DNA of 58,391 bases from Pseudonocardiales bacterium. GTDB taxonomy: Bacteria > Actinomycetota > Actinomycetes > Mycobacteriales > Pseudonocardiaceae. A program made the translations under genes and the position numbers. The notes below the pieces were generated by a model. The model saw nothing but the letters and a program-made list of their open reading frames with translations, did not search any database and was not told the DNA's origin. Of the stretch, positions 1 to 39,466 are shown one piece after another; within the stretch, counting starts at the first letter, position 1; each line of letters starts with the position of its first letter. Where the stretch lies: NCBI GenBank assembly GCA_019240665.1, contig JAFAXZ010000017.1:1-58391 (forward strand), given 5' to 3'.

Positions 1-68
1 GGGAGATTGTCTCCCGTTCCTCGACGCACAACGGCGTGCCCCCACTCATCAACCATCCCCCCAGAATA

Positions 69-110
69 TCCCCCAGAAAGGGGGACACCTTAGCAGATCA
101 AAATCTGCTA
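69..110. repeat. Two adjacent short inverted repeats: tccccc-agaaa-ggggga (69-85) and tagcagat-caaa-atctgcta (91-110), in an AT-richer patch
   Basis: Read directly from the sequence. They lie upstream of the 166-572 reading frames. Confidence 0.6.
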
Positions 111-165
111 GAATAAAGGCCTGTCGCTACGACCGTTTGAGCCCAAGCGGAGATGAGCACCAGCG

Positions 166-572
166 GTGATCTTCAAGGAAGTCCGGCAGGGCCGCCCCTA
201 TCCCGAGCACGGGTTTTCCATGAAGGACTGGGCGCAAATCTCGCCCCAGCAGGTGCGCTTGGCGGATTTGGTCACCACCGCGACGGTGGTGGAGCTGGAG
301 CGGCTGCTATCCGAGGACTCCACTATCCGAGGACTCCACTATCCGAGGACTCCACGCCTTTCGGCGATCTGTTCCCGCACGCAGTGCGGTGGTGCGGTGA
401 GCTGTTCTTAGAGGACAGTTTGCATCGAGCCCTATGCGCCGACCTACAACAACACACCGCACTACACGTCCGGATCCTGGACCTAGACCTCCTCCGCATC
501 GTCCTCGGCGTTCAGCGGGCTCAGCGGAGCTCATCGGTCGAAGACCAGAAGACCACCCGCTCAGCCCACTGA
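166..572 (+). pseudogene. Hypothetical protein, possibly with a degenerate ParB/Srx-like fold, disrupted by a 16-bp tandem triplication
   Basis: The frame-1 N-terminal part (FSMKDWAQISPQQVRLADLVTTATVVELERLLSEDST) looks protein-like. The frame-0 C-terminal part (LSEDSTPFGDLFPHAVRWCGELFLEDSLHRAL...) also looks protein-like. The two join seamlessly if two of the three 16-bp repeat copies are removed. Confidence 0.35.
309..355. repeat. 16-bp tandem repeat atccgaggactccact, 3 copies (last copy 15 nt)
   Basis: Perfect copies at 309-324, 325-340 and 341-355. Confidence 0.95.
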
Positions 573-581
573 ATGCGATCT

Positions 582-1625
582 TTACACTGCATGGAGCCGC
601 TTGGGTTGGATGAGGAACGGATTGGCTTTCGCGCCTGTCGCGAATCCAGCCATGCCCGCTATCTCATCATCGCCCAATCCTCGCTCACGCATCCTCGCGC
701 CAATTTCTTGCGCCAGTTCCGCTCGTTCAATAGGAAGTTCATCACTGGCTGGCTCACAAACCTTCCATCCTCGCGAATTGAGCGCCTTGTAGAAGTCCAC
801 ACGATCGCTCGATTTAACGAATCCAAGACGGTAGGCCCGCTCGAAAATAGCTTGCATGGAAACCCCCCACTCACGCTTCAAGTCGATGAGCTTCCCGAGA
901 GTGAGGTTGCGTAGCTCTGACCGGATGACATGCTCTGGCATGAGGAATTCGGCGGCAAACGCGTTCGCTTCTTCTTCCATGTTGGCGGTGGCGAGAGAGC
1001 TATGTAGGCAAAGGTGACCCAGCTCGTGCGCAAGGGTCAGACGCTTCCTATCTGTGGGGAGTCTGCTATTGATCAAGATGACCGGATGGTCCCCGATCCA
1101 CTGGGACAACCCATCAATGCGTATCGTGCCGAAATCCTCCTCAATGACGACGCATCCCGCAGCCTCGAGCCAACGAATGAGATGCAGGACCGGACCGGCA
1201 GGCATCTTCCACTGCGCGCGCGTGATCAGCGCTGCCGTAGCAGGCTGCGTCCCTTCTGGGTCGAAGGTTGGGATGATGTTGGTCGACCGGATCGACACCT
1301 CCTCGAACAGCAGCGAGATGTGCAGGCGATACATGGTCAAGCGGGCTTCAAGCCGCCGCCAGAGTGTTGCTTTCGTGGTTTTCTGTCTCCGCATATGCGA
1401 ATCAATCGCCAAGGCACCCTGCGTACGCTGTCCATACCGCAGAAAGCTGACTGTAACCCCATAGATCTTTGCGAAATTGGCGAGTGTTTCGTCATCAGGT
1501 ATCCGCTGATCGTTCTCGTATCGTGAGAGCGTCGCCTGTGTGATGCCAAGCTGGCCGCAAACGTCGTCCTGCGTGAGGCCTTGCGCTTTTCGCGCCACGA
1601 GCAGGGCTTCACCCGGTCCGATCAT
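582..1625 (-). CDS. XRE-family HTH fused to an ImmA/IrrE (COG2856) zinc metallopeptidase domain
   Basis: N-terminal HTH (LTQDDVCGQLGITQATLSRYENDQRIP). HEXXH motif (AHELGHLCLH) followed by EEEANAFAAEFLMP. Confidence 0.9.
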   Translation of the reverse strand: MIGPGEALLVARKAQGLTQDDVCGQLGITQATLSRYENDQRIPDDETLANFAKIYGVTVSFLRYGQRTQGALAIDSHMRRQKTTKATLWRRLEARLTMYRLHISLLFEEVSIRSTNIIPTFDPEGTQPATAALITRAQWKMPAGPVLHLIRWLEAAGCVVIEEDFGTIRIDGLSQWIGDHPVILINSRLPTDRKRLTLAHELGHLCLHSSLATANMEEEANAFAAEFLMPEHVIRSELRNLTLGKLIDLKREWGVSMQAIFERAYRLGFVKSSDRVDFYKALNSRGWKVCEPASDELPIERAELAQEIGARMRERGLGDDEIAGMAGFATGAKANPFLIQPKRLHAV

Positions 1626-2272
1626 GATAACGAGCCCTCCTCGTCTCGTTCGTTGATACGAGTCACATCAAAGAGATCGACGGTAGGAAGGTCAGGTCGG
1701 GTGATCGGCCGCCAGCCTATGGTGTCTGCGCTCTCGCCGGGCTCATCAAGCTCAACGGCCCAGAGGGGGTTGTCTTTGCCGTCCCGGTATGAGATCACGG
1801 CCGGACCAACCCGGCGTTCCTGCGCGATCCACCGATAGCCCGCGCCCAACGTGATCGCCTCAAGGCTCGGCAGTTGCGATCCCTGCGCCCAGAACTCCAG
1901 GGCTGCAGCTGTTGGGTATGTGCTGATCTTGTCCTCTGGGTGGTGCCGCTTAAACCGAACCTGGTATTTCTGCGAAATCCAAATCTCTCTGACCGGTTCG
2001 CGATCGATCGTCTCAATGCCTGGGGTGCCATCGACAGCCGCAACCAGCCGAGCCCAGATGCGGTCATGGATGAGGTTGGCAAGGCATCGCCTGCTCATAG
2101 AAGGGAACCAGGCCGGTTGCCACTTCCGAAATTCAGCGAGGTCCTCGCGTGCCCCACGAACCGACCAGGCCAGGTCCGTGAGGAACTTGTCGCCGAGGCC
2201 GGACATCACTGCCCGCTGATCATGAGGCGAAAACATACCAGAAAATATACCACCGTCGATCTTGGCCGGCAC
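1622..2272 (-). CDS. Hypothetical protein translationally coupled to the XRE-ImmA/IrrE gene
   Basis: 216-aa ORF with a protein-like composition. Its stop overlaps the downstream start (ATGA at 1622-1625). No motif recognised. Confidence 0.55.
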   Translation of the reverse strand: MPAKIDGGIFSGMFSPHDQRAVMSGLGDKFLTDLAWSVRGAREDLAEFRKWQPAWFPSMSRRCLANLIHDRIWARLVAAVDGTPGIETIDREPVREIWISQKYQVRFKRHHPEDKISTYPTAAALEFWAQGSQLPSLEAITLGAGYRWIAQERRVGPAVISYRDGKDNPLWAVELDEPGESADTIGWRPITRPDLPTVDLFDVTRINERDEEGSLS

Positions 2273-7968: not shown

Positions 7969-9254
7969 TGGCAGCGCTGACGTCTCGACCCTGCGAGCAG
8001 GTCTCGAGCTTGCTGCGGCTGACCACCGCGGGTTCCGTCGACGACGGCAAGTCCACGCTGGTCGGGCGGTTACTGCACGACACCCAGTCGATCCTGGTCG
8101 ATCAGCTCGCCGCGGTGGACCGGGCCACGCGTGCCCGGGGCGGTGTCTCGTTGGATCTCGCCCTGCTCACCGACGGGCTGCGCGCCGAGCGGGAGCAGGG
8201 CATCACCATCGACGTCGCTTACCGCTATTTCGCCACCCCGACCCGTAAGTTCGTGCTGGCCGACTGCCCCGGACATGTGCAGTACACCCGCAACACCGTC
8301 ACCGGGGCGTCCACCGCTGAGCTCGCCGTGGTGCTGGTCGACGCGCGCAACGGACTGGTGGAGCAGACCCGGCGCCACCTCGCCGTCATGGCGTTCCTGC
8401 GGGTGCCGCACGTGGTACTCGCAGTGAACAAGATGGACTTGGTGGACTTCGACGAGCCGACGTTTCGCCGCATCGAGTCGGAATTCACGGCGGTGGCGAG
8501 CTCGCTGGGCGTGCCAGATGTGATGTCCGTGCCGGTGTCCGCGCTGCACGGCGACAACGTTGCGACTCGCAGCCGGCACACCGGGTGGTATCAGGGCCCG
8601 ACGCTGTTGGAGCACTTGGAGGCGGTACCTGCTGGGCGGGAGGCGGTGGCCGAACCGATGCGCTTCCCGGTGCAACTGGTGCTGCGACCCCGCACCCCCG
8701 AGCATCCCGACTACCGCGGTCTGGCCGGCCGGGTCGCCTCCGGGGTACTCAAGGTCGGCGACGATATCGTCGCGCTGCCCTCCGGAGGCCGCTCCACGGT
8801 TGTTGGCATCGACACCCCCGACGGTCCGATGCCGCGCGCCGCCGCCGGGCAGTCGATCACCGTGCTGCTTCGCGACGAGATCGACGCGGGGCGCGGCGAG
8901 GTGCTGGCCCACCCGGAGCAGCCGCCGCGGGTGGTTACCGAGCTGGACGCGGACCTGTGCTGGTTGGCCGAGGCGCCGCTGCGGGCTGGCGCGCGGGTGC
9001 TAGTCAAGCACGGCACTCGCACCGTCCAGGCACTCGTCACCGAGCTGACCGGGCGGCTGGACCTGCATACCCTGCGGCCTACCGAGGCACCGACCGCGTT
9101 GGAGCTCAACGAGATCGGTGGCGCGCAGATCCGGCTCGCCCAGCCGCTGGCGGTGGACTCCTACGCCACCGACCGCCACACCGGCAACTTCCTCGTCATC
9201 GACGCCACCAACGGCAACACCCTCGCCGCCGGACTCGTCGGCCCCGCGGCGTGA
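7968..9254 (+). CDS. cysN: Sulfate adenylyltransferase subunit 1 (GTPase)
   Basis: GTPase motifs GSVDDGKST, DCPGH and NKMD. The start overlaps the cysD stop. Confidence 0.93.
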   Translation: MAALTSRPCEQVSSLLRLTTAGSVDDGKSTLVGRLLHDTQSILVDQLAAVDRATRARGGVSLDLALLTDGLRAEREQGITIDVAYRYFATPTRKFVLADCPGHVQYTRNTVTGASTAELAVVLVDARNGLVEQTRRHLAVMAFLRVPHVVLAVNKMDLVDFDEPTFRRIESEFTAVASSLGVPDVMSVPVSALHGDNVATRSRHTGWYQGPTLLEHLEAVPAGREAVAEPMRFPVQLVLRPRTPEHPDYRGLAGRVASGVLKVGDDIVALPSGGRSTVVGIDTPDGPMPRAAAGQSITVLLRDEIDAGRGEVLAHPEQPPRVVTELDADLCWLAEAPLRAGARVLVKHGTRTVQALVTELTGRLDLHTLRPTEAPTALELNEIGGAQIRLAQPLAVDSYATDRHTGNFLVIDATNGNTLAAGLVGPAA

Positions 9255-9300
9255 GTGCCGGCGCATCGGGCGCTGGTGCCGGCCGGGGAGCCGCCGCGCG

Positions 9301-9345
9301 CGGGTGTCGGGACGATGGGTGTCGGAACGATGGGTGTCGGGACGA
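9301..9345. repeat. 15-bp tandem repeat gggtgtcgg(g/a)acgat, 3 copies, in the cysN to RAMP-gene intergenic region
   Basis: Copies at 9301-9315, 9316-9330 (one mismatch) and 9331-9345. Confidence 0.95.
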
Positions 9346-9465
9346 TGTGGTAGACCGTTTTGTTGGCGCGGTCCACTGGGCGCTCACCCGCCGGCAACGA
9401 CGTCACGGCTCAGGTGTTTGCCGCGCTGGCCCATTTCGCCGACGGCGCTGGCGTGGAGGTGAGGC

Positions 9466-11994
9466 ATGCCGCGGGTTTCGGTCGTTGCCGTGAGTGCGGA
9501 ACAAGTCGTGTTCGCGCCGCATACCGAGGTGAGATGGCTGACCAGGGACCTTGTCAATGACTGCGGTACCACTCTCCCAGAAGTGGGTCAGGTCGGGGAG
9601 TTCGAGGAGGATTGCTCGAACTGGATCTTTGAGGTGGATCCGGGGTGGCGCGTCGAGTTGCGTGGCCTGAAAGCGGTCGGCAGCCCAGAGTTGATGACGT
9701 TTCGGGTCAACGGCACGAGGACTGTCATTGACCTGACCGATCATGGTGTGCCGCCGGCGATGAAAGCGAAGGCAGCGAGGTTGAGGTTCTGGCTGCTCGT
9801 CCGCCGCGACGGGGACGTCGCTGCCGTGCCGGATCAGGGGGGACTGTATGGACATTTCGATCACCCGGACGTGCCGTCCTGGGTGGCGGAAATCGAGCAG
9901 GAGGCCGCTGCCGAGACTCAGCGAAAACAGGACGCGGAGCTCCTCTGGCGCAAGCGGGAATCGGAGAAAACATCGCGGGACCATTTCATCAATCCGTACA
10001 CCTTCGTCCCGTTCCCGGCGCAACCGCCGCAGCGTGTTAAGCCGTATGGCCATCACGCACTTGCGGAGGAGAGGAAAGAAGCCCGTTTCGCGGGTAGGAT
10101 CACGGCCCAGCTGGTGGCCCGGTCGCCGCTGTTGGTGCGTAACGTCGGCTCGGCCGCACCGCTCGTTGACGATGTAATGACGGCACCGCGAACGGGCACG
10201 GGCCTGCTGTTCATCCCCGGATCGTCGCTGCATGGTGCGATCCGCTCACTGCACGAGACCCTTACCGGCAGCTGCCTGCGTGTCTTCGACCCCGACTTCG
10301 TCCCCGTCTATCGGGACGTCGCCAGCGGTGCGCTGCGCCAGGGCTGGGATCTGGGTGTGGTCGAGGAGGTCGGCCAGGACCACGCTGGCCGTCCGACCAG
10401 GCTCACCCGCTGCGATGAAACCAGGTGGGTTCCGCTCACAACGCTGGCCCGCAGCATACCGAAGGGCGGTGCGGTGACGACCGGACAACGCTTCCAGCTC
10501 AACGAGCAGGACTTCTCCACGCAGCACGGCAGGGAGGTTTACAAGGAGACAGCGTCCGCAATTCTCGACCCGAACGGTGGCTGGGTCGTGCTCGTCACCG
10601 ACGACAGCGCCCGGAAATCGAACATGCCGTACTACTGCGCGGTGGGGCGCCTGCCCGCAACGCCGCAACCGATGGCGCTGACCGACCGCGCGTGGCATGA
10701 GTATCTGCGAGCTGCGGAGGGCACCAAGCAGTGGTTCGCCGGAGAGACCCAGCCACACTTCGAGGCCGAGCGTGCGCGGCTCGCCCAGCCGGGCACCAAC
10801 ATCGGCGACGTGGTCGGTGACCCCACCCTGGCCCGGGGACAAGGTCGCTGGTTGCGGCCGCGTCGGTGGTTTCATCAAGGTCAGGTGGTGTGGCTTGCGC
10901 CTAGCCATGGTCGGCTCCTCGACGGTATGGCGCTGTCGTACCTGTGGCGTACCGCGGGTCAGGGCAGCACCGGTGAGCGCCTCCCTGATGACGGATTCCA
11001 CCCGTGCCACGACCCGGATTTGCTGTGCCTGAGTTGCCGGGTGTTCGGCAGCGCCGATGTGCGGGACGTGAGCGGGCACGAGGTCGACCGTCGGCGCGCC
11101 GAGCAGCGCAGCTATCGGGGGCACGTCCGGGTGCTGGATGCGGTGCTGGAGTCGGGCGGCACGCTTGCTGAGCCTGTCGTGTTGCCTGCGATGGGCTCGC
11201 CTCGACCGGGGTCGGGGCAGTTCTATCTCGATGATCCACAGAGTAGTAAGGAGAGGCTGGGTTATCAGAAGCCACGCAACAGATGGGGTACTCCGGACCC
11301 GCTTCAACCTCGTCACCTGCGGGGGCGGAAGTTCTACTGGCACACCGATCCCCGGACTGATGAGCGGCGTCAACGGTGGCGAGCGCACGATCACGCCCCG
11401 GCCGGCGAGCAGGTCGAGTTGGTCGCCGCGGGCAGTGCCTACCGGCTGGACGTGGTGTTCGACGGGTTGACCAAAGCTGAGATCGGCGGCTTGGTGGCCA
11501 CGCTCCAACCGGACCGCCTGTTCGCCACGCAGCAGCAGCCACTGCCGTATCCGCTCAGCGGCGACCCGGAGTACGCCATCCACATCGGAGGCGGCAAGCC
11601 GCTCGGCCTCGGCTCCTGCCAGGTCCGGGACCTGCAGATCATCGCCGACAGCGTCGAGTCCCGCTATCTGGGTGCTGAGCAGCCGGTGCTCGATCCAGCC
11701 GACCTCATCGCAGCCTTTGTCACGGACCAGGGCGACCTCGGTTCCACCTGGCAGAACCTGGCCGCGGCGTTGCACACCGACCACGTTGACTCCCGCATCG
11801 TCTCTTACCCCACCGCTACCGAGTGGGCAGACGACGACGGAACCTGCTCCGGTAAGCGACAGCATGAGGCATTCACGTGGTTCCAGCAGACGACCGGCGA
11901 AGCCTTGCGAGACGGAGAGCGACCGTTCGTCCCGTTGCCGTCGGTCTCGGATATCGCTCCGGTACTGGCGGTGCACGCCAAGGAGAACAGGTGA
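9466..11994 (+). CDS. Large RAMP-superfamily protein (842 aa) with an unknown roughly 170-aa N-terminal domain and a large internal insertion
   Basis: RBS GGAGGTGAGGC precedes the ATG. RAMP signatures: FINPYTFVPF, LLFIPGSSLHGAIRSL, CLSCRVFGS, LRGRKFYWH and the glycine loop IHIGGGKPLGLGS. Confidence 0.8.
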   Translation: MPRVSVVAVSAEQVVFAPHTEVRWLTRDLVNDCGTTLPEVGQVGEFEEDCSNWIFEVDPGWRVELRGLKAVGSPELMTFRVNGTRTVIDLTDHGVPPAMKAKAARLRFWLLVRRDGDVAAVPDQGGLYGHFDHPDVPSWVAEIEQEAAAETQRKQDAELLWRKRESEKTSRDHFINPYTFVPFPAQPPQRVKPYGHHALAEERKEARFAGRITAQLVARSPLLVRNVGSAAPLVDDVMTAPRTGTGLLFIPGSSLHGAIRSLHETLTGSCLRVFDPDFVPVYRDVASGALRQGWDLGVVEEVGQDHAGRPTRLTRCDETRWVPLTTLARSIPKGGAVTTGQRFQLNEQDFSTQHGREVYKETASAILDPNGGWVVLVTDDSARKSNMPYYCAVGRLPATPQPMALTDRAWHEYLRAAEGTKQWFAGETQPHFEAERARLAQPGTNIGDVVGDPTLARGQGRWLRPRRWFHQGQVVWLAPSHGRLLDGMALSYLWRTAGQGSTGERLPDDGFHPCHDPDLLCLSCRVFGSADVRDVSGHEVDRRRAEQRSYRGHVRVLDAVLESGGTLAEPVVLPAMGSPRPGSGQFYLDDPQSSKERLGYQKPRNRWGTPDPLQPRHLRGRKFYWHTDPRTDERRQRWRAHDHAPAGEQVELVAAGSAYRLDVVFDGLTKAEIGGLVATLQPDRLFATQQQPLPYPLSGDPEYAIHIGGGKPLGLGSCQVRDLQIIADSVESRYLGAEQPVLDPADLIAAFVTDQGDLGSTWQNLAAALHTDHVDSRIVSYPTATEWADDDGTCSGKRQHEAFTWFQQTTGEALRDGERPFVPLPSVSDIAPVLAVHAKENR

Positions 11995-12629
11995 CGGTCT
12001 ACCTCGACATCGGCGCGAAACGCATTCAGGCGTATCTCGCTCGCACACCCCGCTTGCGGGGCCGACGGGGTGCCTCCGCGCTGCTCGAGTACGAGAGGTT
12101 GCACGAGTGGACCAGGGATGCCTGGTCACGGTACGTGGAGGTCAACGAGGAGGGCAAGAGGACCGACGGGGTGCTCTCGCTGCGCTTCACCAACCCGGAC
12201 GTCGATGACCGCACGATCGATGCCGTGGTGACCGAGACCGCGACGCGGCTGCAGCGTCTGGCGCCGGGAGCCGAATGGGACGTGCATCTGCGCCGCGCGG
12301 ACAGCTATCGGCAGGCTCTGCGCGACGGTGCCGCCGCCGAGCGCGCCGGGCACGATCTGTTGCCCGGCAGTGTCATGCGGTACCGACCGCTCCCGGCCGC
12401 ACCGAACGAAGTGCCGGTCGTGCGGTTCTGCGACACCTGTGGCCTCGACCCGGCGGTGTGCACCGGGCAGGTGGAACCGGCTGAGGCAGACGGGAAGAAG
12501 TCGTTGTGCGCTGACTGCTCCCGCCGTTTCCTGGAGGGCGGGTACCGGACCGACACCCGCAACTGGACGCCGGACGAAGCGCGGAGGCGCTGGCAGGACA
12601 AGATCGCGCCGGGCGGGCTCGCCGGCTGA
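11991..12629 (+). CDS. Cas10-like protein, N-terminal part (palm-like domain plus CxxC..CxxC knuckle; no HD domain)
   Basis: AAGGAG RBS, and the GTG overlaps the upstream stop (GTGA). VYLDIGAKRIQAYL..RLRGRRGASALL resembles the Cas10 D-x-x-GIQ..LRGRS start. Zinc knuckle CDTCG..CADCS. It ends at a TGA, where homology continues in the +1 frame. Confidence 0.65.
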   Translation: MTVYLDIGAKRIQAYLARTPRLRGRRGASALLEYERLHEWTRDAWSRYVEVNEEGKRTDGVLSLRFTNPDVDDRTIDAVVTETATRLQRLAPGAEWDVHLRRADSYRQALRDGAAAERAGHDLLPGSVMRYRPLPAAPNEVPVVRFCDTCGLDPAVCTGQVEPAEADGKKSLCADCSRRFLEGGYRTDTRNWTPDEARRRWQDKIAPGGLAG

Positions 12630-12648
12630 GCGGGACCTGCGCGTCGGC

Positions 12649-13518
12649 GTGGAGCGGACCAAGCGCACGAATGCCGGGACGTTGAGGGTTGCTCCGGATT
12701 TCGGTGACCTCGCGGCGCTCGGTTCGGGCGACGCGAACCACTTATGCACCGTGGGCGACGCGAACCACTTATGCACCGTGTTCGTCGACGGCAACCGGTT
12801 CGGCGCTCTGTTCGCCGCATTGCAGGATGCCAAGGTCAGCTTGCGGGAAGAACTCTCGGCCGCACTCAACGAGGCGATCCGGGGTGCGCTAGTCGTCGCC
12901 ACCGCGGACGTGACCGGCGAGGCCGATACCTACCTGCCGGTCGTCCCGCACCTCGTCGGCGGCGACGACCTGCTCGCGTCGGTCACCGCCGACCGGGCAT
13001 GGGACTTCGTCGTGGCGTTTCTCAACGATTATCACCGACGGACGGCGGCGCTGGCTGCCGACTATCAGCAGCGCGCCGGTACCCCGGTCCCAGCTCCTCC
13101 CACCGCATCAGCTGGACTGGTGTTCGCCCACTACAAGTACCCGTTCGCCAACTGCCTCGACCTCGCCGAGACCGCGCTGCGGCGGGCGAAGTCCCGACAC
13201 AAGGCCCGGGAGCCGGCGGTGTGTTGGATCGACGTCACCGAGGACGGCCCGGAACTACCCCTGTCACGATCCGCGCCTCGCCTGATGACGCTAGCCGATC
13301 ACCGCTCCGACATCGACGGGCTGTGCACCATCCCACCATCCGGTCGAGCGCAACTGGCCAAGGCCGCCCAGGACGGCGATGACACGGCGGTGGCTGCGCT
13401 TGCGCACCGGCTCGGCCACATAAGTCTCATCCGGCCGTTCCAGCTGGCCCAGCCACCGATGCCGCTGCTCGACGCGCTGGCTCTCGGGAGGTGGTGGCAG
13501 TGCCGGCGACCCGCCTGA
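12649..13518 (+). CDS. Cas10-like protein, C-terminal part (Palm2/cyclase domain with intact GGDD)
   Basis: FGDLAAL, FVDGNRFGALF, VVPHLVGGDDLL (GGDD codons 12958-12969), SAGLVFAHYKYPF and ETALRRAKS. The frame is readable from 12628, and GTG at 12649 is a possible independent start. It may be the downstream half of a frameshifted single gene. Confidence 0.7.
   Translation: MERTKRTNAGTLRVAPDFGDLAALGSGDANHLCTVGDANHLCTVFVDGNRFGALFAALQDAKVSLREELSAALNEAIRGALVVATADVTGEADTYLPVVPHLVGGDDLLASVTADRAWDFVVAFLNDYHRRTAALAADYQQRAGTPVPAPPTASAGLVFAHYKYPFANCLDLAETALRRAKSRHKAREPAVCWIDVTEDGPELPLSRSAPRLMTLADHRSDIDGLCTIPPSGRAQLAKAAQDGDDTAVAALAHRLGHISLIRPFQLAQPPMPLLDALALGRWWQCRRPA
12727..12780. repeat. Perfect 27-bp tandem duplication (ggcgacgcgaaccacttatgcaccgtg, 2 copies) inside the Cas10-like Palm2 gene
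   Basis: Copies at 12727-12753 and 12754-12780. In frame, it duplicates GDANHLCTV. Confidence 0.97.
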
Positions 13519-14069
13519 TCTTTGAGGTCACCTTCCACGGCCCGGTGCGCGTCGGCCGGGGCCGCGCTGGCGTCGGGGTGGACGACACCGTTGACCCCGA
13601 CGTGATCGTGCCGGGCTCGTCGCTGAAAGGGCTTATGCGTGCCGAGGCGGCTGTCTTGTTCGGCGGTCGCCAGGCCGATCTGGTCGGGGAGGTCTTCGGC
13701 ACGGCCAGGCAGCCCAGCCCGTGGCACTGGAACGACATCCGCGCTGACAGCACGGCCGAGAACCTGGTCAGATCCGGAGCCCGCATCCGCGTCGACAGCA
13801 CGTCCGGCTCTACCGTTGACGGTGGTCTGTTCTCGGCGGAATACCGCTGGCCACGAACCGCCCGGTTCGCCGTTCAGCGTTTCGCCGCACTCACCGACGA
13901 GGACAGCGAACGCCATGAGGTGTTGCTGTGGGTCGCGGCGCTGTCCGTGCACAGCGTCGGCGCCGACCGCAATCGCGGTTATGGCTGGGTCGATGTCAGG
14001 CGGGTAGGCGCCGAGCCGGACGAGGTGTTCCTGGCCCGGGTCGCCAACGTGCTGGGGGTGCGATCATGA
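13500..14069 (+). CDS. Small RAMP protein (Csm3/Cmr4/Cas7-like, about 189 aa)
   Basis: GGGAGG RBS before the GTG at 13500 (the ORF is open from 13491). VPGSSLKGLMR, EVFG, RVDSTSGSTVDGGLFSAE and the C-terminal glycine loop NRGYGW. Confidence 0.78.
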   Translation: MPATRLIFEVTFHGPVRVGRGRAGVGVDDTVDPDVIVPGSSLKGLMRAEAAVLFGGRQADLVGEVFGTARQPSPWHWNDIRADSTAENLVRSGARIRVDSTSGSTVDGGLFSAEYRWPRTARFAVQRFAALTDEDSERHEVLLWVAALSVHSVGADRNRGYGWVDVRRVGAEPDEVFLARVANVLGVRS

Positions 14070-14695
14070 TCCGAGTCACTGTACGGGCCGAGCAGCCGCT
14101 GCACCTGGGTTCCCAGCTGGATGCCGGTTGGCTCACCGACACGCACCGTTTCGTGCCCGGCAGTGTGTTGCGTGGTGCGCTGGCGGCGCTGTGGCTGGCC
14201 GAACACCGTCCCCCGAAGCCCGACACTAGCGACGATGTGGAATTCCAGCGGCTCTTCGAGGGCGGGGTGCGGTTCGGGCCGCTCTACCCGAGCGACGACG
14301 CGCTGCGCCCGCTGTCGGTGTTCGGCTGCAAGTACGCCGATGATGACGCCTGCCGCGGGTTCACCTACGACGCCGCGGTCGACGGCGCCGCTCGCCCCAC
14401 CTGCCCAGCCTGCGGTTCCCCGGTCGAGGCGAGCAAGGGCCACATCGACGGTGTCCGGGTCGTCGAGCACACCCGGGTTGAGCTCGACGAGCGCGAACGC
14501 GCCGCCAACTGCGTCAGCCCCTCTGTGTGCGGGGGTACGCTAAGGATCATGGCCAACGGGGCAGGGTACGTCGTACCCGCACCGGTTGTTACGGCCGGAC
14601 GCCTACTCGGTCGCAGAGCGCGTGCACGTCATCTCGTAGTCCCGTGGGCGGGGCGGCGGCGAGAAAAAGCAACATATCGCGGGCGTAGCCGTTGA
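14066..14695 (+). pseudogene. Second RAMP protein (Cas5/Csx10-like N-terminus with a zinc-ribbon insert), apparently 3'-truncated
   Basis: ATGA coupling to the previous gene. MIRVTVRAEQPLHLGS, FVPGSVLRGALAAL, VRFGPLYP and CKY..C....CPACG. After about 14510 the translation loses protein-like character and runs into the convergent gene that ends at 14589. Confidence 0.6.
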
Positions 14696-15812
14696 AGCGG
14701 ATGGTGTCCGGCGCGGTGCGCTCGGCGGCATGCAACATCGCGTACGCGCCATCCCGGTCGTGCCGCTGGTGATGGGCACGGGCGACTTCGATCAGGTGCC
14801 TGCTGCGCCGGGCAAGCGAGGGAATCTCGTTGGCGTCGAAGCCGTTTGCGGTGCGCATCGCCTCGCCGGGACGGCGCAGCTCCACATCGAGCGTGACCGC
14901 GTGGGCATTCATCACGGTGATGCTGAATGACGTCTGCACATGCCGGTACCGCGAACCTAACCGCCGGGCCATCTCGTTGGCCCGTTCCCAATACGACCAC
15001 GCTTCACCGTGCCGACCGCGACGGGCATGCACATAGCCCACCTCGAATTGCAGGGCTCCCCACATGCCACGCCAGTCGTCATCGGAGGTGCGGTGCAACC
15101 ACGGTTCGAGCTGCCGCGCTCCGCCGAACGCAACCGTGATGGCTTCTTCCCAGCGCCCGGTGTCCCGCAGCGCGCCGGTCAGCGCCCACGCGCCGCCCGC
15201 GATGCCGTATGGGTCATCGGCTTCCTGCGCCTCGGTAATCGCGCGGTCGGCCACCAGCCACACCAGTTCGGGAGCCGGTTGGTAGGCGACATAGAAATCC
15301 GCCAGCCGGTACACCCCGGCCAGCACTCGACGAGCTGTGCGCCGCTCACTGCCCTTCGTGGTGCGCACCGCGCGTTGGCCATCTCGGATGAGATCGGGCA
15401 GCAACGCGCCAACGGCCGTCCGGTGAGCGGGGCTACTGTGGCGCACATCCCACGCTTGATCCAGCCGCATCTGTAGGTGCGCCACGTTGACCGGTGCATC
15501 CTGAGCCGCGAACCGGTAGTCGGTGAGCGCGGCCTGCACCGCGGACAGCGCGGCGTGCGCTTCGCCGGTGAACGCTTGTACCGGCACCGCGTGACCGTCC
15601 CCGGTCAACTCGGCCAGGTCGCGCACGTCCAACGCTCGCGCGATCCGCAACAGCATCGGCAGCCGGGGCACCTGCAACCGGCCCGTCTCGACGGCCTTCA
15701 CCCATTCCGCACTGCGCCCCACCAGCCCGCCGAGAACAGGTCGGCTCATTCCGATTCGGTTGCGGAAATGCTTGATGCGCTCGCCGGTGGTCTTCCCCGT
15801 CACATCGGCCAT
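14589..15812 (-). CDS. XRE-family HTH regulator with a C-terminal TPR-like domain (WhiJ-like)
   Basis: N-terminal HTH (GERIKHFRNRIGMSRPVLGGLVGRSAEWVKAVETG). The long helical C-terminus is typical of actinomycete 400-aa XRE regulators. Confidence 0.8.
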   Translation of the reverse strand: MADVTGKTTGERIKHFRNRIGMSRPVLGGLVGRSAEWVKAVETGRLQVPRLPMLLRIARALDVRDLAELTGDGHAVPVQAFTGEAHAALSAVQAALTDYRFAAQDAPVNVAHLQMRLDQAWDVRHSSPAHRTAVGALLPDLIRDGQRAVRTTKGSERRTARRVLAGVYRLADFYVAYQPAPELVWLVADRAITEAQEADDPYGIAGGAWALTGALRDTGRWEEAITVAFGGARQLEPWLHRTSDDDWRGMWGALQFEVGYVHARRGRHGEAWSYWERANEMARRLGSRYRHVQTSFSITVMNAHAVTLDVELRRPGEAMRTANGFDANEIPSLARRSRHLIEVARAHHQRHDRDGAYAMLHAAERTAPDTIRFNGYARDMLLFLAAAPPTGLRDDVHALCDRVGVRP

Positions 15813-15895
15813 ATCCCGCCTCTCCTGCTGGACGCCAGGGTAACGGCGGCCGTGCAGCGTGGCAGCTGCTCAACGCTGCAGATCAGCCACCGCTC

Positions 15896-16290
15896 TCAGC
15901 CCCCGATCCAATCGACGATCTGCGACCCCGCCAACCCCTGGGCTGACAACAACACGATCCGGGCCCGCCGCTCCAGCATCACCCCGATCAGACTCCGAGA
16001 ACTCCAGACTGCGCACCCGACTCGGCATGCGCCAATAGTCCACTGTTCCGCGGAACACCAAAGACAGACACGCGTCACGACACTAGCGTGTTGGTACTGG
16101 ATGCAGTGTTCAGTCTGGCTGGCTTCCGGGTGCTGGCCGCGACCGATGCTGGCGGTGAACTGGAGCTGTGTGATCGAGTTCTCGCCAGCCCTGCGGACCT
16201 GCCTCATGGATCACGACACCGACGTTGCGCCGAGATGCTCATAGAATCCGCCATCGCCGGGCACGGTCTACTTCGGCTATTGGACAGGTG
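15896..16290. mobile_element. Possible insertion-sequence remnants (transposase HTH-like fragments on both strands)
   Basis: Minus-strand fragment ..ERRARIVLLSAQGLAGSQIVDWIG resembles an IS630-type transposase HTH. Plus-strand fragment AGFRVLAATDAGGELEL resembles an ISL3-type N-terminus. No intact ORF is present. Confidence 0.25.
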
Positions 16291-16924: not shown

Positions 16925-18411
16925 ATGAGCCGGGAACCGGAAGCCATCACGGCGCAGCGCCGCCAGCTCGGCGCAGCGCTGGCCACCTTCCGGCAGGCAG
17001 CTGGGCAGAGCCAAGCGCAGCTGGGCCTGCACACCCGGTACGACCGAACCTCGATCAACAAGATCGAGCGCGGCCAGCAGTTGCCGGACCGGCCGTTCTG
17101 GCAGGCAGTCGATCGACTGCTGCACGCCGAGGGGGCGCTGCTGAAGCGCTATGACGAGCTGGTCGCCAGCAAGCGGGAGCACGCCCAGCGGCAGCGGCAG
17201 TCCAGCCGGGCGCGCCATCAGGTCGACGCCGCGCGCTTGCGCGGTGAGCGAGCACCGACACCCGCACTGCTGAACTCGGACCCGGCGAACGAGCCGGCCA
17301 ACGATCCCGAGCATGAGGTGGCGCTCTCCGCGCCGTGGAGCCACCAAGGTACCGTCGAGGCGTCAGTCGTGCTGAGAGGCGGTGAGAGTCGAGTGCAGCG
17401 CCGACGCTTCGTGTTTCTGACCGGCACAGCCTTGACTGCCCCGGCGCATCAATGGTTGGTGCACGAGCCGGGACCGCTGGTGTCCGGCCTGTCCGGGCGT
17501 CGGGTCTCGGCCAAGCTGATCGACCGGCTTATGCCGATGGTCTCCGAACTCCGCAGATGGACGACATCGCCGGTGGTGGCAGCGTGCTCTCCCTGGCTGC
17601 GCACGAATTCCAGTGGGTCGCCGGGTTGCTCGACCAAGCCAGGTATGACGAGCGGACCGGCCGCGCGCTGCACATCGCACTCGCCGAGCTGGGACAGGTT
17701 TGTGGCTGGGCCGCCTACGACGCCGGATACCACGCGCTGGCCCAGCGCTACTACGTCACTGCCTTGCGCGCAACGCACAGCGCCGACGAGCGGCCGCTCG
17801 GCGCGCACGTGCTCGGTCTCATGGCCGAGCAGGCCGCCCACCAGGGCCAGCCCGCTGAGGCCGTGACGCTTATCGAGACCGCCCTGGCCGGTACCCGGGG
17901 TCGGCAGACCCCGAGCCTGCTGGCCGAGCTGTACAACGTGCAGGCCTATGCCTTCGCGACACTGGCTGACGCGTCGAGCTGCGCCGCCGCGCTCTCCCAG
18001 GCACGCACGCAGATCGAGCGACTGAGGCCAGCTGACGAGCCGTCCTGGCTGTACTGGGTGAATCCAGCGACCATGACGAGCGACGGCGGCAGCGCCCTGC
18101 GGCAGTTGGGGCACACCGAGCAAGCGGCGACGGTGCTCGAGAATGGCATCGCCCTGTTCGACGACTCACTCCCCCGTGGCCGCGCCGGCTATCTCACCGC
18201 CCTCGCCGATGTCCTGGCTCGGCCGGACAAGCAGCGCGACCTGGATGCCGCCGCTGACCGGGGCATGGAGGCGATCCAGCTGGTCGAGAACCTGGACTCC
18301 GCCCGCGTTGCCGGTCTGATCCGCAACCTCTACCACCAGATGACGCCACACGCGCGGCTGCCCGCCGTAGGAGACTTCGTGGAGCGAGCGCGAGGTTTCC
18401 TGGCGACATAG
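16925..18411 (+). pseudogene. XRE-HTH plus TPR-like regulator (paralogue of 14589-15812), frameshifted near 17556
   Basis: ORF 16925.. carries the HTH (LGLHTRYDRTSINKIERGQQ). ORF ..18411 carries the TPR-like part. The join SELRR / MDDIAGGG is restored by a 1-nt indel around 17555-17558. Confidence 0.65.
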
Positions 18412-37579: not shown

Positions 37580-39466
37580 GTGGCGAGCAAGAGTCTCAGC
37601 GAGGTCTCAGCGAGGGAACGGGCGCTAGTCGACGCCTTGACGTCCGGCTGCGTAGTCGAGTGCAGCAAACTCAGCACTGAGCAGTTAGGCGCGACGGACA
37701 ACCCTCGGTACACCATCCGTGCCGAGCTCCTGCGGGAGCTGGTGCTAGGACGCAGCGGTGAGCGTCTTGATCCACGGGGGGTGCGTGTCCATGGAGCGCG
37801 GATCATGGGAACGCTTGATCTCACCCATGTCCCGGCCGCAGTGGGGATTGAACTGCGAGGCTGCTTCTTCGAGCGCGCTGTGCTGCTGGCCAGTGCCCAC
37901 TTGCCCTGGTTGACCTTGGCGAGCTCGCATCTGTCGGCGCTGGACTGTGACGGCCTCCACGTTGACGGCGACGTTCTGCTCGGCGACGGATTCACGGCCA
38001 CCGGACAAAGCGACTGCGGTGCAGTGCGGCTGCTCGGCGCCCACGTCAGAGGCCAGCTCAACTTCAACGGCGCGAGGCTGACCAACGAGACCGGGCCCGC
38101 CCTCATCGGCGACGGGCTGCGCGTTGATGGCGACGTATTTGGCGGGGGGTTCATCGCCACCGGATACGGCGAACTCGGCGCGGTGCGACTGCCGGGCGCC
38201 CACATCATCGGGCAACTCAACCTCAACGGCGCCGAGCTGGCCAATCAAGCCGGGCCCGCCCTCATCGGCGATGGGCTTCATGTTGACGGCGGTCTGGTGC
38301 TCGCCGAGGGATTCACCGCCACCGGACACTACGAGCGGGGCGCGGTGCGGTTGCCCGGTGCCCACATCAGCGGCCAACTCAACTTGGATGGCGCGGCGCT
38401 GATCAACCCGGTCGGGCCCGCCCTCATCGGTGACCACCTCGACGTCAACGGTGGCGTGTTCCTCGACGGGTTCACCGCCACCGGATACGGCGAAGACGGC
38501 GTAGTGCGGCTGCCGGACACCCATATCACCGGCCAACTCAACCTCGACCGCGCGGAGCTGACCAACCCCACCGGGCCTGCCTTCATCGGCGACCACCTCC
38601 GGGTCGACAGCGACATGTTCGCCGAGGGATTCACCGCCACCGGACACAGTCAAGACGGCACCGTGCGGCTGGCAGACGCCCACATCAGCGGCCAACTCAA
38701 CCTCAGCCACGCCAAGCTGACCAACCCGGCCGGGCCGGTCCTCGATCTGGAGGACACTGCGACCAAGCACCTATTTCTGCCCGCCCAGGTGATCTGCCCA
38801 CACGATGCGGCCAAGAGGACTAGCTGCACCGCGCCAGCACATCGGCTCGCGCTATCCGGCCTCGCTTACACGTCGCTGCATGCGGTCGACTGGCGTGAGT
38901 GGCTGCACGTGATCATTCACCATACCCGTGACTACCGACCTCAGCCCTACCAGCAACTTGCCGCCGCATTGAGAGCCAGTGGCCACGAATCCACCGCGCG
39001 GGAAGTCCTCATCGCCCAACAGCAGGACCTTTACCACCGCGGTGATCTCGGTGGCCCGCTGATCAAGAGTGCGCACTGGCTCTGGGGAACACTCGCCGGA
39101 TACGGCTACCGCAGCAGCCGCGCTGTCCTCGTCCTCGTGCTGGTGCTCATGATTGCGGCAGGGCTGGGTGTTGCCGCCGGGCACATCCCCATCGGCCCGG
39201 GCCACTACGTCACCGCGCACACCAGTCAAACCCCCGATCCCAACTCGCCGTGCTCTCTGGTCGAGCAGATCGGGGTAGGTATCGACCGCAGCGTGCCGCT
39301 GGCTCCAGCGGGCATCAACAACCGCTGCGATTTCGACACGTCCAGCCCGCTTGGCCAAGCGTTCACCGCATCCACCTGGATACTCCAAGCCCTGGTTTGG
39401 ACGCTGGCCGCGCTCGCCATCGCCGGTTACCTCGGTCTCATCCGTAAGACCAGTGCGCCGGGATGA
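37580..39466 (+). CDS. Repeat-rich (beta-helix-like) protein with a C-terminal membrane domain. The family is often annotated as membrane-associated oxidoreductase or pentapeptide-like; its function is unknown.
   Basis: About 5.5 tandem 53-54-aa units (GAVRLPGAHIxGQLNLxGAxLxNxxGPALIGDxLxVDGxxF..GFTATG). C-terminal TM helices. Its 3' end overlaps the proA end by 29 nt. Confidence 0.75.
   Translation: MASKSLSEVSARERALVDALTSGCVVECSKLSTEQLGATDNPRYTIRAELLRELVLGRSGERLDPRGVRVHGARIMGTLDLTHVPAAVGIELRGCFFERAVLLASAHLPWLTLASSHLSALDCDGLHVDGDVLLGDGFTATGQSDCGAVRLLGAHVRGQLNFNGARLTNETGPALIGDGLRVDGDVFGGGFIATGYGELGAVRLPGAHIIGQLNLNGAELANQAGPALIGDGLHVDGGLVLAEGFTATGHYERGAVRLPGAHISGQLNLDGAALINPVGPALIGDHLDVNGGVFLDGFTATGYGEDGVVRLPDTHITGQLNLDRAELTNPTGPAFIGDHLRVDSDMFAEGFTATGHSQDGTVRLADAHISGQLNLSHAKLTNPAGPVLDLEDTATKHLFLPAQVICPHDAAKRTSCTAPAHRLALSGLAYTSLHAVDWREWLHVIIHHTRDYRPQPYQQLAAALRASGHESTAREVLIAQQQDLYHRGDLGGPLIKSAHWLWGTLAGYGYRSSRAVLVLVLVLMIAAGLGVAAGHIPIGPGHYVTAHTSQTPDPNSPCSLVEQIGVGIDRSVPLAPAGINNRCDFDTSSPLGQAFTASTWILQALVWTLAALAIAGYLGLIRKTSAPG
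37940..38760. repeat. DNA-level tandem array of units about 159-162 bp long, encoding the protein repeats
   Basis: The periodicity is read from the translation. Unit boundaries are approximate. Confidence 0.7.

What the first reader, a model, noticed from the sequence alone, without database searches (positions are those of the whole stretch)
11991..13518. HD-less minimal Cas10-like cyclase split across two reading frames at 12627
The Palm1-like and zinc-knuckle half ends at TGA 12627-12629. The homology-bearing Palm2 half continues immediately in the +1 frame (readable from 12628: ERDLRVGVERT..), with a possible GTG start at 12649. A 1-nt indel just before the stop would fuse them into a protein of about 505 aa (..KIAPGGLA-ERDLRV..). 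There are three possibilities. It may be a recently frameshifted pseudogene, a naturally split Cas10, or an assembly indel. The catalytic GGDD and surrounding Palm2 motifs are intact, and no HD nuclease domain precedes Palm1. Any activity would therefore be nucleotide cyclase or polymerase only.
Basis: partly seen in the sequence, partly recalled or inferred. Interest (0 to 1): 0.65.

Follow-up and report, generated by a model that had tools for sequence, protein, structure and literature searches.

The report
Frameshifted Cas10 in decaying CRISPR locus
This is an ordinary type III-D CRISPR Cas10 gene in an uncultured Pseudonocardiales bacterium, broken by one extra G and a 27-base duplication, inside a CRISPR locus that has lost half its genes and its array, so it is best read as a recent pseudogene.

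Summary
Window 11991-12629 and 12628-13518 are the two halves of one HD-less Cas10, read in frames 0 and +1.

The best reading is a recent pseudogene.
- Homologues are single genes: 52 near-full-length protein homologues of 448-528 aa, the best 86% identical, and 58 of 59 loci in species-representative genomes.
- DNA alignment to two intact orthologues shows one inserted G at 12623/12624 (GCC GCT GAG became GCC GGC TGA G).
- The extra G is not an assembly error. It recurs in five independent assemblies with at least three haplotypes, including a 71x contig.

- A perfect 27-bp tandem duplication (12726-12779, GDANHLCTV twice) lies just before the catalytic FVDGN strand of Palm2.
- The operon is truncated. 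csx10 stops at residue 148 of 432. The double Cas7, Cas11, 2TM-SAVED effector and CRISPR array seen in intact syntenic relatives are absent from all 58 kb.

dN/dS on this lineage is not raised, so the damage is recent. There is no slippery site, and the shift is not conserved, so recoding is unlikely. HD-less is normal for type III-D.

Low interest: a known kind of gene, caught decaying.

The parts
9466..11994 (+). Cas7 with a large insertion (TIGR03986 family type III RAMP, 842 aa). The ORF is intact.
   Evidence: NCBIfam TIGR03986 scores 204.4 bits against a cutoff of 161. PADLOC Csm3/Cas7_IIId and gRAMP profiles also hit. It is 78% identical over the full length to the 845-aa orthologue in L001.
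11991..12629 (+). Cas10 N-terminal half (Palm1 plus the CxxC...CxxC zinc-finger linker), 212 codons ending at a premature TGA at 12627-12629.
   Evidence: PADLOC Cas10 PDLC00919 positions 3-175. It aligns to residues 1-211 of single-gene orthologues. GC3 is 0.85.
12429..12518 (+). The four zinc-finger cysteines (C147, C150, C173, C176).
   Evidence: They are invariant in the 16-sequence alignment A1. Four cysteines are likewise invariant in the 52-sequence alignment A4.
12623..12624 (+). The frameshift lesion: GG here where intact orthologues have a single G (CTCGCC-GCTGAG became CTCGCCGGCTGAG).
   Evidence: DNA alignment of the window with L001, L003 and L004. It is the only indel that is not a multiple of three.
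12628..13518 (+). Cas10 C-terminal half in the +1 frame (end of the linker, Palm2 with GGDD, C-terminal helical domain). Public annotation calls it from GTG 12649 (289 aa).
   Evidence: Pfam PF22335, E 2.4e-12. PADLOC Cas10 PDLC00919 positions 200-380, E 7.1e-32. Protein P0019.
12726..12779 (+). Perfect 27-bp tandem duplication (GDANHLCTV twice). It copies the loop and the first half of the beta-strand that carries the catalytic Asp of FVDGN.
   Evidence: TRF finds 2.0 copies at 100% identity, confirmed by the repeat finder D14. It is absent from all 15 homologues aligned and from L001 and L003 DNA. It is a single copy in the Logan contig of run X1. The second copy carries a C>T change in L004 and L005.
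12787..12795 (+). The D-G-N of the FVDGN motif, the first metal-binding Asp of Palm2.
   Evidence: D265, G266 and N267 are invariant. It corresponds to D286/G287 in the III-D2 Cas10 active site (PMC13294483). That correspondence is my inference from motif position.
12958..12969 (+). GGDD catalytic motif, intact.
   Evidence: G323, D324 and D325 are invariant and G322 nearly so.
13491..14069 (+). Small Csm3-like Cas7 (189-192 aa; the start may be 13491, 13494 or 13500). Intact.
   Evidence: Pfam RAMPs, E 1.3e-12. PADLOC Csm3 PDLC01404, E 8.7e-34. It is 82% identical over the full length to the L001 orthologue.
14066..14509 (+). csx10 (Cas5 of type III-D) remnant. Only residues 1-148 of about 432 remain. 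The open frame runs on to 14695 through non-homologous sequence.
   Evidence: PADLOC Cas5_IIId profiles match only their first ~100 positions. tblastn with the 432-aa L001 protein covers residues 1-148 only. Homology to L001 and L003 DNA ends at 14505-14518. GC3 of the tail is 0.58.
14510..16074 (.). Replacement segment. It stands where about 4.3 kb of the L003-type locus would be (the rest of csx10, the double Cas7, Cas11, the 2TM-SAVED effector). It carries an antisense HTH_31 regulator gene at 14589-15812 (-).
   Evidence: Window 16075-16367 matches L003 downstream of its effector gene again, and nothing in between matches. Pfam HTH_31.

Best explanation
The two ORFs are one type III-D Cas10 gene that was recently inactivated in this Pseudonocardiales lineage.

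What the intact system does (inferred from homology, except where noted):
- In intact relatives the gene encodes a single ~498-aa protein without an HD domain. The domain order is Palm1, zinc-finger linker, Palm2 with GGDD, then a helical C-terminal domain.
- The operon is Cas7-insertion, Cas10, Csm3-like Cas7, Csx10 (Cas5), double Cas7, Cas11 and a 2TM-SAVED membrane protein. A CRISPR array lies next to several of these loci.
- By homology to characterised type III systems, the complex binds a crRNA, and a matching foreign RNA switches on the Cas10 Palm pocket.
- Cas10 then makes a nucleotide second messenger. Cyclic oligoadenylate is most likely, because the partner carries a SAVED sensor.
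- The messenger activates the membrane effector and arrests the infected cell.

What happened here (shown):
- One G was inserted at 12623/12624. Translation now stops at TGA 12627, and Palm2 sits in the +1 frame.
- A 27-bp tandem duplication sits in front of the catalytic strand of Palm2.
- A deletion and replacement removed the C-terminal two thirds of csx10, the double Cas7, Cas11, the effector and any array.

Conclusion (inferred): what remains cannot assemble a crRNA-guided complex and has no effector to signal to. The split Cas10 is therefore a non-functional remnant. It is too young to have lost its motifs.
For: 1. One gene, not two. Both halves match consecutive parts of one Cas10 profile. 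A fused read-through is 83-86% identical over 99-100% of its length to single 496-499-aa proteins.
2. The lesion is defined. One extra G relative to two intact orthologues, and every other indel is a multiple of three. GC3 switches frame at the site.
3. It is real DNA. The same frameshift is in the window, ENA assemblies ERZ27313809 and ERZ27313870, NCBI GCA_019246555.1, JGI contigs and the 71x Logan contig of run X1. These are 99.93-99.94% identical but carry different SNPs.
4. A single ORF is the rule. 58 of 59 loci in GTDB species representatives are single-frame. The one exception (Phytohabitans flavus) is shifted at a different place.
5. There is further damage. The 27-bp duplication is unique to this lineage. 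csx10 is cut at residue 148. The double Cas7, Cas11, the effector and the repeat are absent from the whole window. In intact relatives they follow directly in L001, L002 and L003, and L001 and L002 lie at the same genomic site, downstream of cysN.
6. The break is not in a floppy linker. In the AlphaFold model of the orthologue P0001 (pLDDT 88.4, pTM 0.88), it falls at the N-cap of a confident helix (residues 214-227). Restarting at GTG 12649 would drop about 8 residues of that helix.
7. There is no SD-like sequence before GTG 12649 and no slippery codon at GGC-UGA-G (inspection).
Against: - The catalytic residues and zinc ligands are all intact.
- dN/dS on the window branch is low: 0.17 for Cas10, and 42 non-synonymous against 76 synonymous changes over four genes. 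That is lower than on the sister branch. There is therefore no statistical sign of relaxed constraint, and the argument rests on the lesions themselves.
- The Cas7-insertion and Csm3-like genes are still open.
- TGA 12627 and GTG 12649 are only 20 nt apart, so termination-reinitiation could in principle yield both halves.
- Only 58 kb of the genome is visible. A second type III locus or an array elsewhere cannot be excluded.
- No raw reads, RNA or protein data were available. Run X1 is held only as contigs, and no RNA runs are served.
Confidence: 0.88

Rival explanations
1. Functional split Cas10. The 212-aa Palm1/Zn fragment and a 289-aa Palm2/CTD fragment are both made, the second by reinitiation at GTG 12649 after the TGA. 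They associate non-covalently into an active cyclase. It might use subunits or crRNA from another locus, or act without crRNA.
For: All catalytic and zinc-binding residues are intact. The stop and the restart codon are 20 nt apart. The split form is fixed in at least three haplotypes. Lineage dN/dS is low.
Against: No other member of the family is split at this place. The break removes part of a confidently predicted helix. No SD-like sequence precedes GTG 12649. A 9-aa duplication sits in front of the catalytic strand. Csx10 is truncated, and Cas11, the double Cas7, the effector and the array are gone. The haplotypes differ by only about 0.06%, so 'fixed' means little time has passed.
Confidence: 0.06
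2. Assembly or sequencing artefact. The real gene is intact, and the extra G and/or the duplication were introduced by the assembler.
For: The sequence comes from metagenome assemblies. The Logan contig of run X1 has only one copy of the 27-mer, so at least the duplication differs between assemblies.
Against: The extra G is reproduced by different assemblers and sources: MEGAHIT k141 contigs in ENA, an NCBI MAG, JGI contigs and a 71x Logan k-mer contig. The site is a G to GG change, not a long homopolymer. The duplication occurs in four assemblies, and in two of them one copy has since gained a C>T change, which an artefact would not do. The single-copy form in X1 needs k-mers that the duplicated form lacks, so both alleles probably exist (my inference from k = 31 logic).
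Confidence: 0.03
3. Programmed +1 ribosomal frameshift at GGC-UGA, in the manner of prfB, gives a full-length Cas10 at some efficiency.
For: An in-frame UGA is followed at once by the continuing +1 frame. A G-rich stretch (GGGCGGG) lies about 6 nt upstream of the GGC codon that precedes the UGA.
Against: The site exists only in this lineage, and orthologues are in frame with the same G-rich stretch as ordinary coding sequence. tRNA-Gly on GGC cannot re-pair well on GCU (inspection). The G-rich stretch is neither a GGAGG/GGGGG Shine-Dalgarno sequence nor at prfB spacing. Full length would still carry the duplication and would still lack partners.
Confidence: 0.02

Closest known systems
Intact orthologues in Pseudonocardiaceae MAGs (P0001, P0003, P0011 and others; NCBI name 'Cas10/Cmr2 second palm domain-containing protein'). 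L001 and L002 sit at the same site downstream of cysN.
   Same: They are 83-86% identical over the whole fused length, with the same domain order and motifs and the same flanking Cas7-insertion and Csm3-like genes. L001 and L002 have the same position downstream of the cys operon.
   Different: They are single 496-499-aa ORFs with one copy of GDANHLCTV. They are followed by full csx10 (431-432 aa), a double Cas7 (444-454 aa), Cas11 (134-136 aa) and a 2TM-SAVED protein (328-330 aa). L001 also has a CRISPR array.
[quoted passage not shown]
   Same: It is the best solved match by sequence profile (E 1.6e-19) and by fold (Foldseek E 3e-15, TM 0.63/0.57 against the model of P0001). It retains GGDD and works with a Cas7-insertion subunit.
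   Different: Identity is only about 17%. III-Dv fuses Cas7-Cas5-Cas11 and needs Csx19. Here Csx10, the double Cas7 and Cas11 are separate genes, and none of the nine operon proteins scanned matched a profile named Csx19. The window copy is broken.
Type III-D2 Cas10 with the CorA effector (Gammaproteobacteria bacterium HyVt-522; PMC13294483)
   Same: Its Cas10 has the Palm1-Linker-Palm2-CTD order with no separate HD domain listed. It signals to a membrane protein, and toxin-antitoxin genes lie in the locus. L001 has VapBC-like pairs upstream.
   Different: III-D2 has GGDE and makes SAM-AMP and SAM-AMP2, not cOA. [quoted passage not shown] The effector here has two N-terminal transmembrane helices and a C-terminal SAVED domain, although its best PADLOC profile is named 'CorA-like'. 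The messenger of this family is untested. PMC12669027 also states that the signal sensed by CorA homologues in III-D loci is unclear.
prfB-type programmed +1 frameshifting
   Same: An in-frame UGA with the protein continuing in the +1 frame.
   Different: The site is not conserved in any orthologue and has no re-pairing-competent P-site codon. It arose by a lineage-specific 1-nt insertion.

Membership tests
Cas10 (type III large subunit) | Palm2 cyclase/polymerase domain with a GGDD-type motif and an upstream metal-binding Asp | tested here: met
   Pfam PF22335 scores 47.6 bits against a cutoff of 27. GGDD and FVDGN are conserved.
Cas10 (type III large subunit) | N-terminal Palm1 domain and zinc-finger linker preceding Palm2 | tested here: met
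   PADLOC Cas10 PDLC00919 positions 3-175. Four cysteines are invariant. The model of the orthologue aligns over its full length to 8S9T Cas10.
Cas10 (type III large subunit) | Encoded as one continuous polypeptide | tested here: not met
   TGA at 12627-12629 and a +1 frame thereafter, caused by one inserted G. Orthologues meet this feature.
Cas10 (type III large subunit) | Sits in an operon with Cas5, Cas7 and Cas11 and is associated with a CRISPR array | tested here: not met
   The window has the Cas7-insertion gene, the Csm3-like gene and only 148 aa of Csx10. It has no Cas11, no double Cas7 and no repeats in 58 kb. Relatives L001, L008 and L017 meet this feature.
CRISPR-Cas subtype III-D | csx10, the III-D-specific Cas5 variant | tested here: inconclusive
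   The orthologue's 432-aa protein hits Cas5_IIId at E 1.8e-27 over the full profile. The window keeps only the N-terminal third.
CRISPR-Cas subtype III-D | Cas10 without an HD nuclease domain | tested here: met
   Pfam and NCBIfam find no HD domain. The start overlaps the upstream stop. All homologues begin at MTVYLD. That III-D Cas10 typically lacks HD is established knowledge (Makarova classification).
CRISPR-Cas subtype III-D | Several different Cas7 paralogues, including one with a large insertion | tested here: met
   TIGR03986 passes its cutoff for the 842-aa protein. Csm3-like and double-Cas7 genes are present in orthologues.
CRISPR-Cas subtype III-D | csx19 (frequent but not obligatory) | tested here: not met
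   None of the nine operon proteins scanned against PADLOC matched a profile named Csx19.
Pseudogene | Reading frame disrupted relative to intact orthologues, and the disruption is real in DNA | tested here: met
   the lesion; five assemblies.
Pseudogene | Relaxed selection on the lineage | tested here: inconclusive
   Branch dN/dS is 0.17 for Cas10 and is not raised against the sister branch. This is compatible with very recent inactivation. Three of the four within-lineage differences in the two Cas10 halves change the protein, but n is tiny.
Pseudogene | No full-length product made | not testable with these tools
   No RNA runs are served, and there are no proteomes.
Programmed +1 frameshift (prfB-like) | Shift site conserved among orthologues | tested here: not met
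   58 of 59 genomic loci and all 52 near-full-length protein homologues are in a single frame.
Programmed +1 frameshift (prfB-like) | Slippery P-site codon before a poor A-site codon, with a correctly spaced SD-like stimulator | tested here: not met
   The sequence is GGC UGA G, and GGC to GCU re-pairing is poor. There is no GGAGG or GGGGG 3 nt upstream (inspection).

The most novel reading that the evidence does not exclude
The split is tolerated or even used. Both halves would be translated by termination-reinitiation and would re-associate into an HD-less cyclase. That cyclase would work with a type III backbone or a sensor encoded elsewhere in the genome, or as a stand-alone messenger synthase. 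This would be a naturally occurring two-piece Cas10. The 27-bp duplication, polymorphic in the population, would then modulate activity.
Probability: 0.04. Interest if true: 0.55.

Novelty: new member of a known kind. Interest (0 to 1): 0.15.

Why it matters
The main value is for annotation. The two 'hypothetical protein' ORFs in public MAGs (for example MBV9163568.1) should be read as one frameshifted cas10 inside a remnant type III-D locus, not as a minimal or split cyclase.

It is also a clean snapshot of early CRISPR-locus decay. There are three separate lesions: a 1-nt insertion, a 27-bp duplication that is polymorphic in the population, and a 4.3-kb deletion/replacement. All three lie on a background that still shows purifying-selection statistics.

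The intact actinobacterial family behind it may be worth biochemical study, because its second messenger is not known. It comprises an HD-less Cas10, a Cas7-insertion protein, Csx10, a double Cas7, Cas11 and a 2TM-SAVED membrane protein. That interest does not attach to this broken copy.

Tried and rejected
- Read pile-up. The only run that holds the stretch (X1, rock metagenome) is kept as contigs, so allele counts could not be made. The contigs confirm the extra G but not the duplication.
- RNA evidence. No RNA runs are served.
- Look-up of the JGI protein P0064. It is not on record.
- Relaxed-selection test. A three-taxon parsimony count of dN/dS gave no rise on the window branch, so it cannot be used as support.
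- Promoter and terminator scan of 9200-16200. Nothing above shuffled expectation.
- CRISPR repeat of the L001 array searched in the window with 3 mismatches. No match. The window-wide direct-repeat and TRF scans show no array.
- 'Two unrelated neighbouring genes' is rejected by the profile and orthologue alignments.
- Subtypes III-I, III-H and III-G were considered and rejected. Their Cas10 Palm domains are inactivated or lost (PMC12669027), whereas this family keeps GGDD.
- CorA/SAM-AMP signalling was considered for the intact family. The effector's layout (N-terminal 2TM plus C-terminal SAVED) does not match CorA, so it is left open.

Full report
**1. The observation**

- GTG 11991 overlaps the stop of the upstream gene and opens a 212-codon frame that ends at TGA 12627-12629.
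- The +1 frame reads ...AERDLRVGVERT... from 12625/12628 and closes at 13516-13518.
- The N half matches positions 3-175 of the 414-position PADLOC Cas10 profile PDLC00919. The C half matches positions 200-380 of the same profile (E 7.7e-9 and 7.1e-32).
- Pfam places Cas10-Cmr2_palm2 on the C half above its gathering cutoff.
- Third-position GC is 0.87 in the N frame up to 12626. In the C frame it is only 0.70 upstream of the site and 0.81 after it. The coding signal therefore changes frame exactly at the site.

This is far more than chance.

**2. Are orthologues single genes?**

Yes.
- A read-through of the two halves found 57 proteins. Of these, 52 were used as near-full-length homologues (448-528 aa). 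The best are 83-86% identical over 99-100% of the query and come from Pseudonocardiaceae MAGs. More distant ones come from Pseudonocardia oroxyli, Streptomyces and Rhizohabitans.
- The remaining hits are the window's own 289-aa C half (P0019) and four shorter proteins. At least two of those lie on contigs under 1.5 kb.
- A scan of one genome per GTDB species found 59 loci, all in Actinomycetota. In 58 the match lies in one frame.
- The exception, Phytohabitans flavus NBRC 107702, is shifted near residue 400. That is an independent break at another place.

**3. The lesion**

- The DNA alignment with two intact orthologues (L001, L003) shows CTCGCC-GCTGAG in them and CTCGCCGGCTGAG here. That is one inserted G at 12623/12624, which turns GCC GCT GAG (A A E) into GCC GGC TGA. 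Every other indel among these sequences is a multiple of three.
A perfect 27-bp tandem duplication at 12726-12779 repeats GDANHLCTV immediately before FVDGN. None of the 15 homologues aligned has it, and neither orthologous DNA has it.
- The AlphaFold model of the 86%-identical orthologue P0001 has pLDDT 88.4 and pTM 0.88. In it the frameshift falls at the N-cap of a confident helix (residues 214-227). The duplication copies a loop and the first five residues of the strand 253-262, which carries the catalytic Asp.
[quoted passage not shown] Foldseek gives 8S9T_C at E 3e-15 and TM 0.63. A profile search gives E 1.6e-19.

**4. Real or artefact?**

- The 212-aa and 289-aa products are on record from NCBI, ENA, JGI and Logan assemblies.
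- Three loci were fetched: L004 (ENA ERZ27313809), L005 (NCBI GCA_019246555.1, 'Pseudonocardiales bacterium') and L006 (ENA ERZ27313870). They are 99.93-99.94% identical to the window over 4.2-6.6 kb and carry the same extra G. They differ by a few SNPs that define at least three haplotypes.
- An independent k-mer assembly of the only run that holds the sequence (X1, a rock metagenome, contig depth 71) also has the extra G. It contains only one copy of the 27-mer.
- In L004 and L005 the second copy of the 27-mer has gained a C>T (Thr to Ile) change.
- The frameshift is therefore real and fixed in the sampled population. The duplication is real but apparently polymorphic. I infer that it is later than the frameshift, but tandem duplications also collapse easily, so the order is not proven.

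**5. The surroundings**

The intact relatives carry the full operon, and L001 and L002 lie at the same chromosomal site, downstream of the sulfate-assimilation genes that end with cysN. The operon in them is:

| Gene | Size (aa) | Evidence |
|---|---|---|
| Cas7-insertion | 845 (804 as called in L003) | TIGR03986 |
| Cas10 | 496-499 | PF22335 |
| Csm3-like Cas7 | 188-189 | Pfam RAMPs |
| Csx10 | 431-432 | Cas5_IIId, E 1.8e-27 |
| Double Cas7 | 444-454 | PADLOC Cas7_IIId |
| Cas11 | 134-136 | PADLOC, E 1.9e-17 |
| Membrane effector | 328-330 | two N-terminal hydrophobic helices and a C-terminal SAVED domain |

- CRISPR arrays lie beside the locus in L001 (4 repeats), L008 (14 repeats) and Streptomyces sp. 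BP-8 (two arrays).
- In the window the Cas7-insertion gene (9466-11994) and the Csm3-like gene (13491-14069) are full length.
- csx10 is homologous only to residue 148 (14066-14509).
- The double Cas7, Cas11 and the effector give no tblastn hit anywhere in the 58 kb. There is no repeat array.
- Homology to L003 resumes at 16075. About 4.3 kb has been replaced by 1.57 kb that carries an antisense HTH_31 regulator gene at 14589-15812.

**6. Mechanism**

Inferred for the intact family:
- It is a type III-D effector complex.
- The Palm pocket of Cas10 is switched on by target-RNA binding, as in characterised type III systems, and makes a nucleotide messenger.
- A SAVED-containing membrane protein senses the messenger and arrests the cell.
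- The messenger is unknown. SAVED suggests cyclic oligoadenylate.
- Some III-D systems pair an HD-less Cas10 with a CorA membrane effector and make SAM-AMP (PMC13294483). The effector's best PADLOC profile is named 'CorA-like'. Its layout, however, is the reverse of CorA.

For the window copy:
- Translation ends after the zinc finger.
- Palm2 could be made only by reinitiation at GTG 12649, which has no SD-like sequence. It would lack part of a helix and would carry a 9-aa insertion.
- The Cas5 scaffold, the other backbone subunits, the small subunit, the effector and the guide source are all missing.
- The most likely state is no function.

**7. Timing**

- A three-taxon count (window, L003, with L001 as outgroup) gives branch dN/dS of 0.17 for Cas10. 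Over the four genes there are 42 non-synonymous and 76 synonymous changes. This is lower than on the sister branch.
- Nearly all of this lineage's history was therefore spent under constraint. The lesions are recent, which agrees with the intact motifs.

**8. Rivals**

- A functional two-piece Cas10 cannot be excluded outright, but nothing supports it beyond the intact residues (about 0.06).
- An assembly artefact is contradicted by five assemblies (about 0.03).
- Programmed +1 frameshifting lacks both conservation and a slippery site (about 0.02).

**9. Comparison and novelty**

- HD-less Cas10, Csx10, multiple Cas7 paralogues and a Cas7-insertion subunit are the hallmarks of subtype III-D (PMC11026444; PMC12669027).
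- NCBI already names the intact orthologues 'Cas10/Cmr2 second palm domain-containing protein'.
- This copy is a new but broken member of a known kind.
- Interest is low. The value lies in correct annotation and in a tidy example of stepwise CRISPR-locus decay.

Noticed in passing
window 16925-18411 (+): An HTH_31 ORF (16925-17866) and a TPR-like ORF (17452-18411) overlap in different frames, and the GC3 signal switches frame near 17500. A Streptomyces homologue (L065) has what looks by eye like an HTH-type N-terminal region and the TPR-like region in one frame. This may be a second frameshifted gene. It is identical in L004-L006.
   Followed up: partly
window 14510-16074; HTH_31 gene 14589-15812 (-): The segment that replaces the lost half of the cas operon carries a 407-aa XRE-type (HTH_31) regulator on the opposite strand. 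Its 3' end overlaps the non-homologous tail of the csx10 remnant ORF.
   Followed up: partly
L001 5372-7102 (orthologous locus), compared with window 9255-9465: In the intact relative a PIN gene preceded by a small ORF, and a MazE-PIN pair (VapBC-like antitoxin/toxin), lie between cysN and the Cas7-insertion gene. The window has only a 211-bp spacer there, with a 15-nt x3.1 tandem repeat (9302-9347). TA modules are reported as required parts of III-D2 defence (PMC13294483).
   Followed up: no
L001 15081-16067; L003 7727-8719: The effector of the intact family has two N-terminal transmembrane helices and a C-terminal SAVED domain. Its best PADLOC profile is nevertheless named 'CorA-like' (E 6e-49). 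The messenger it senses is unknown.
   Followed up: partly
L048 8001-9409 (Phytohabitans flavus NBRC 107702 chromosome): This Cas10 homologue has an independent frameshift near residue 400, seen as two tblastn segments in different frames in a complete isolate genome.
   Followed up: partly
window 37580-39466 (+): A 628-aa ORF holds about five or six tandem copies of a ~53-aa repeat (159-nt period, 74-75% matches) followed by hydrophobic C-terminal segments. Its function was not examined.
   Followed up: no
window 1-2000: GC content is lower (0.586 against about 0.68 elsewhere), and there are short perfect tandem repeats (for example a 16-nt unit x3.1 at 307-355).
   Followed up: no
window 9466-9975 (first ~170 codons of the Cas7-insertion gene): The N-terminal extension of ~170 aa matches no family profile scanned here. 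The III-Dv paper reports an unresolved, uncharacterised N-terminal 112-residue domain on its Cas7-insertion subunit.
   Followed up: no
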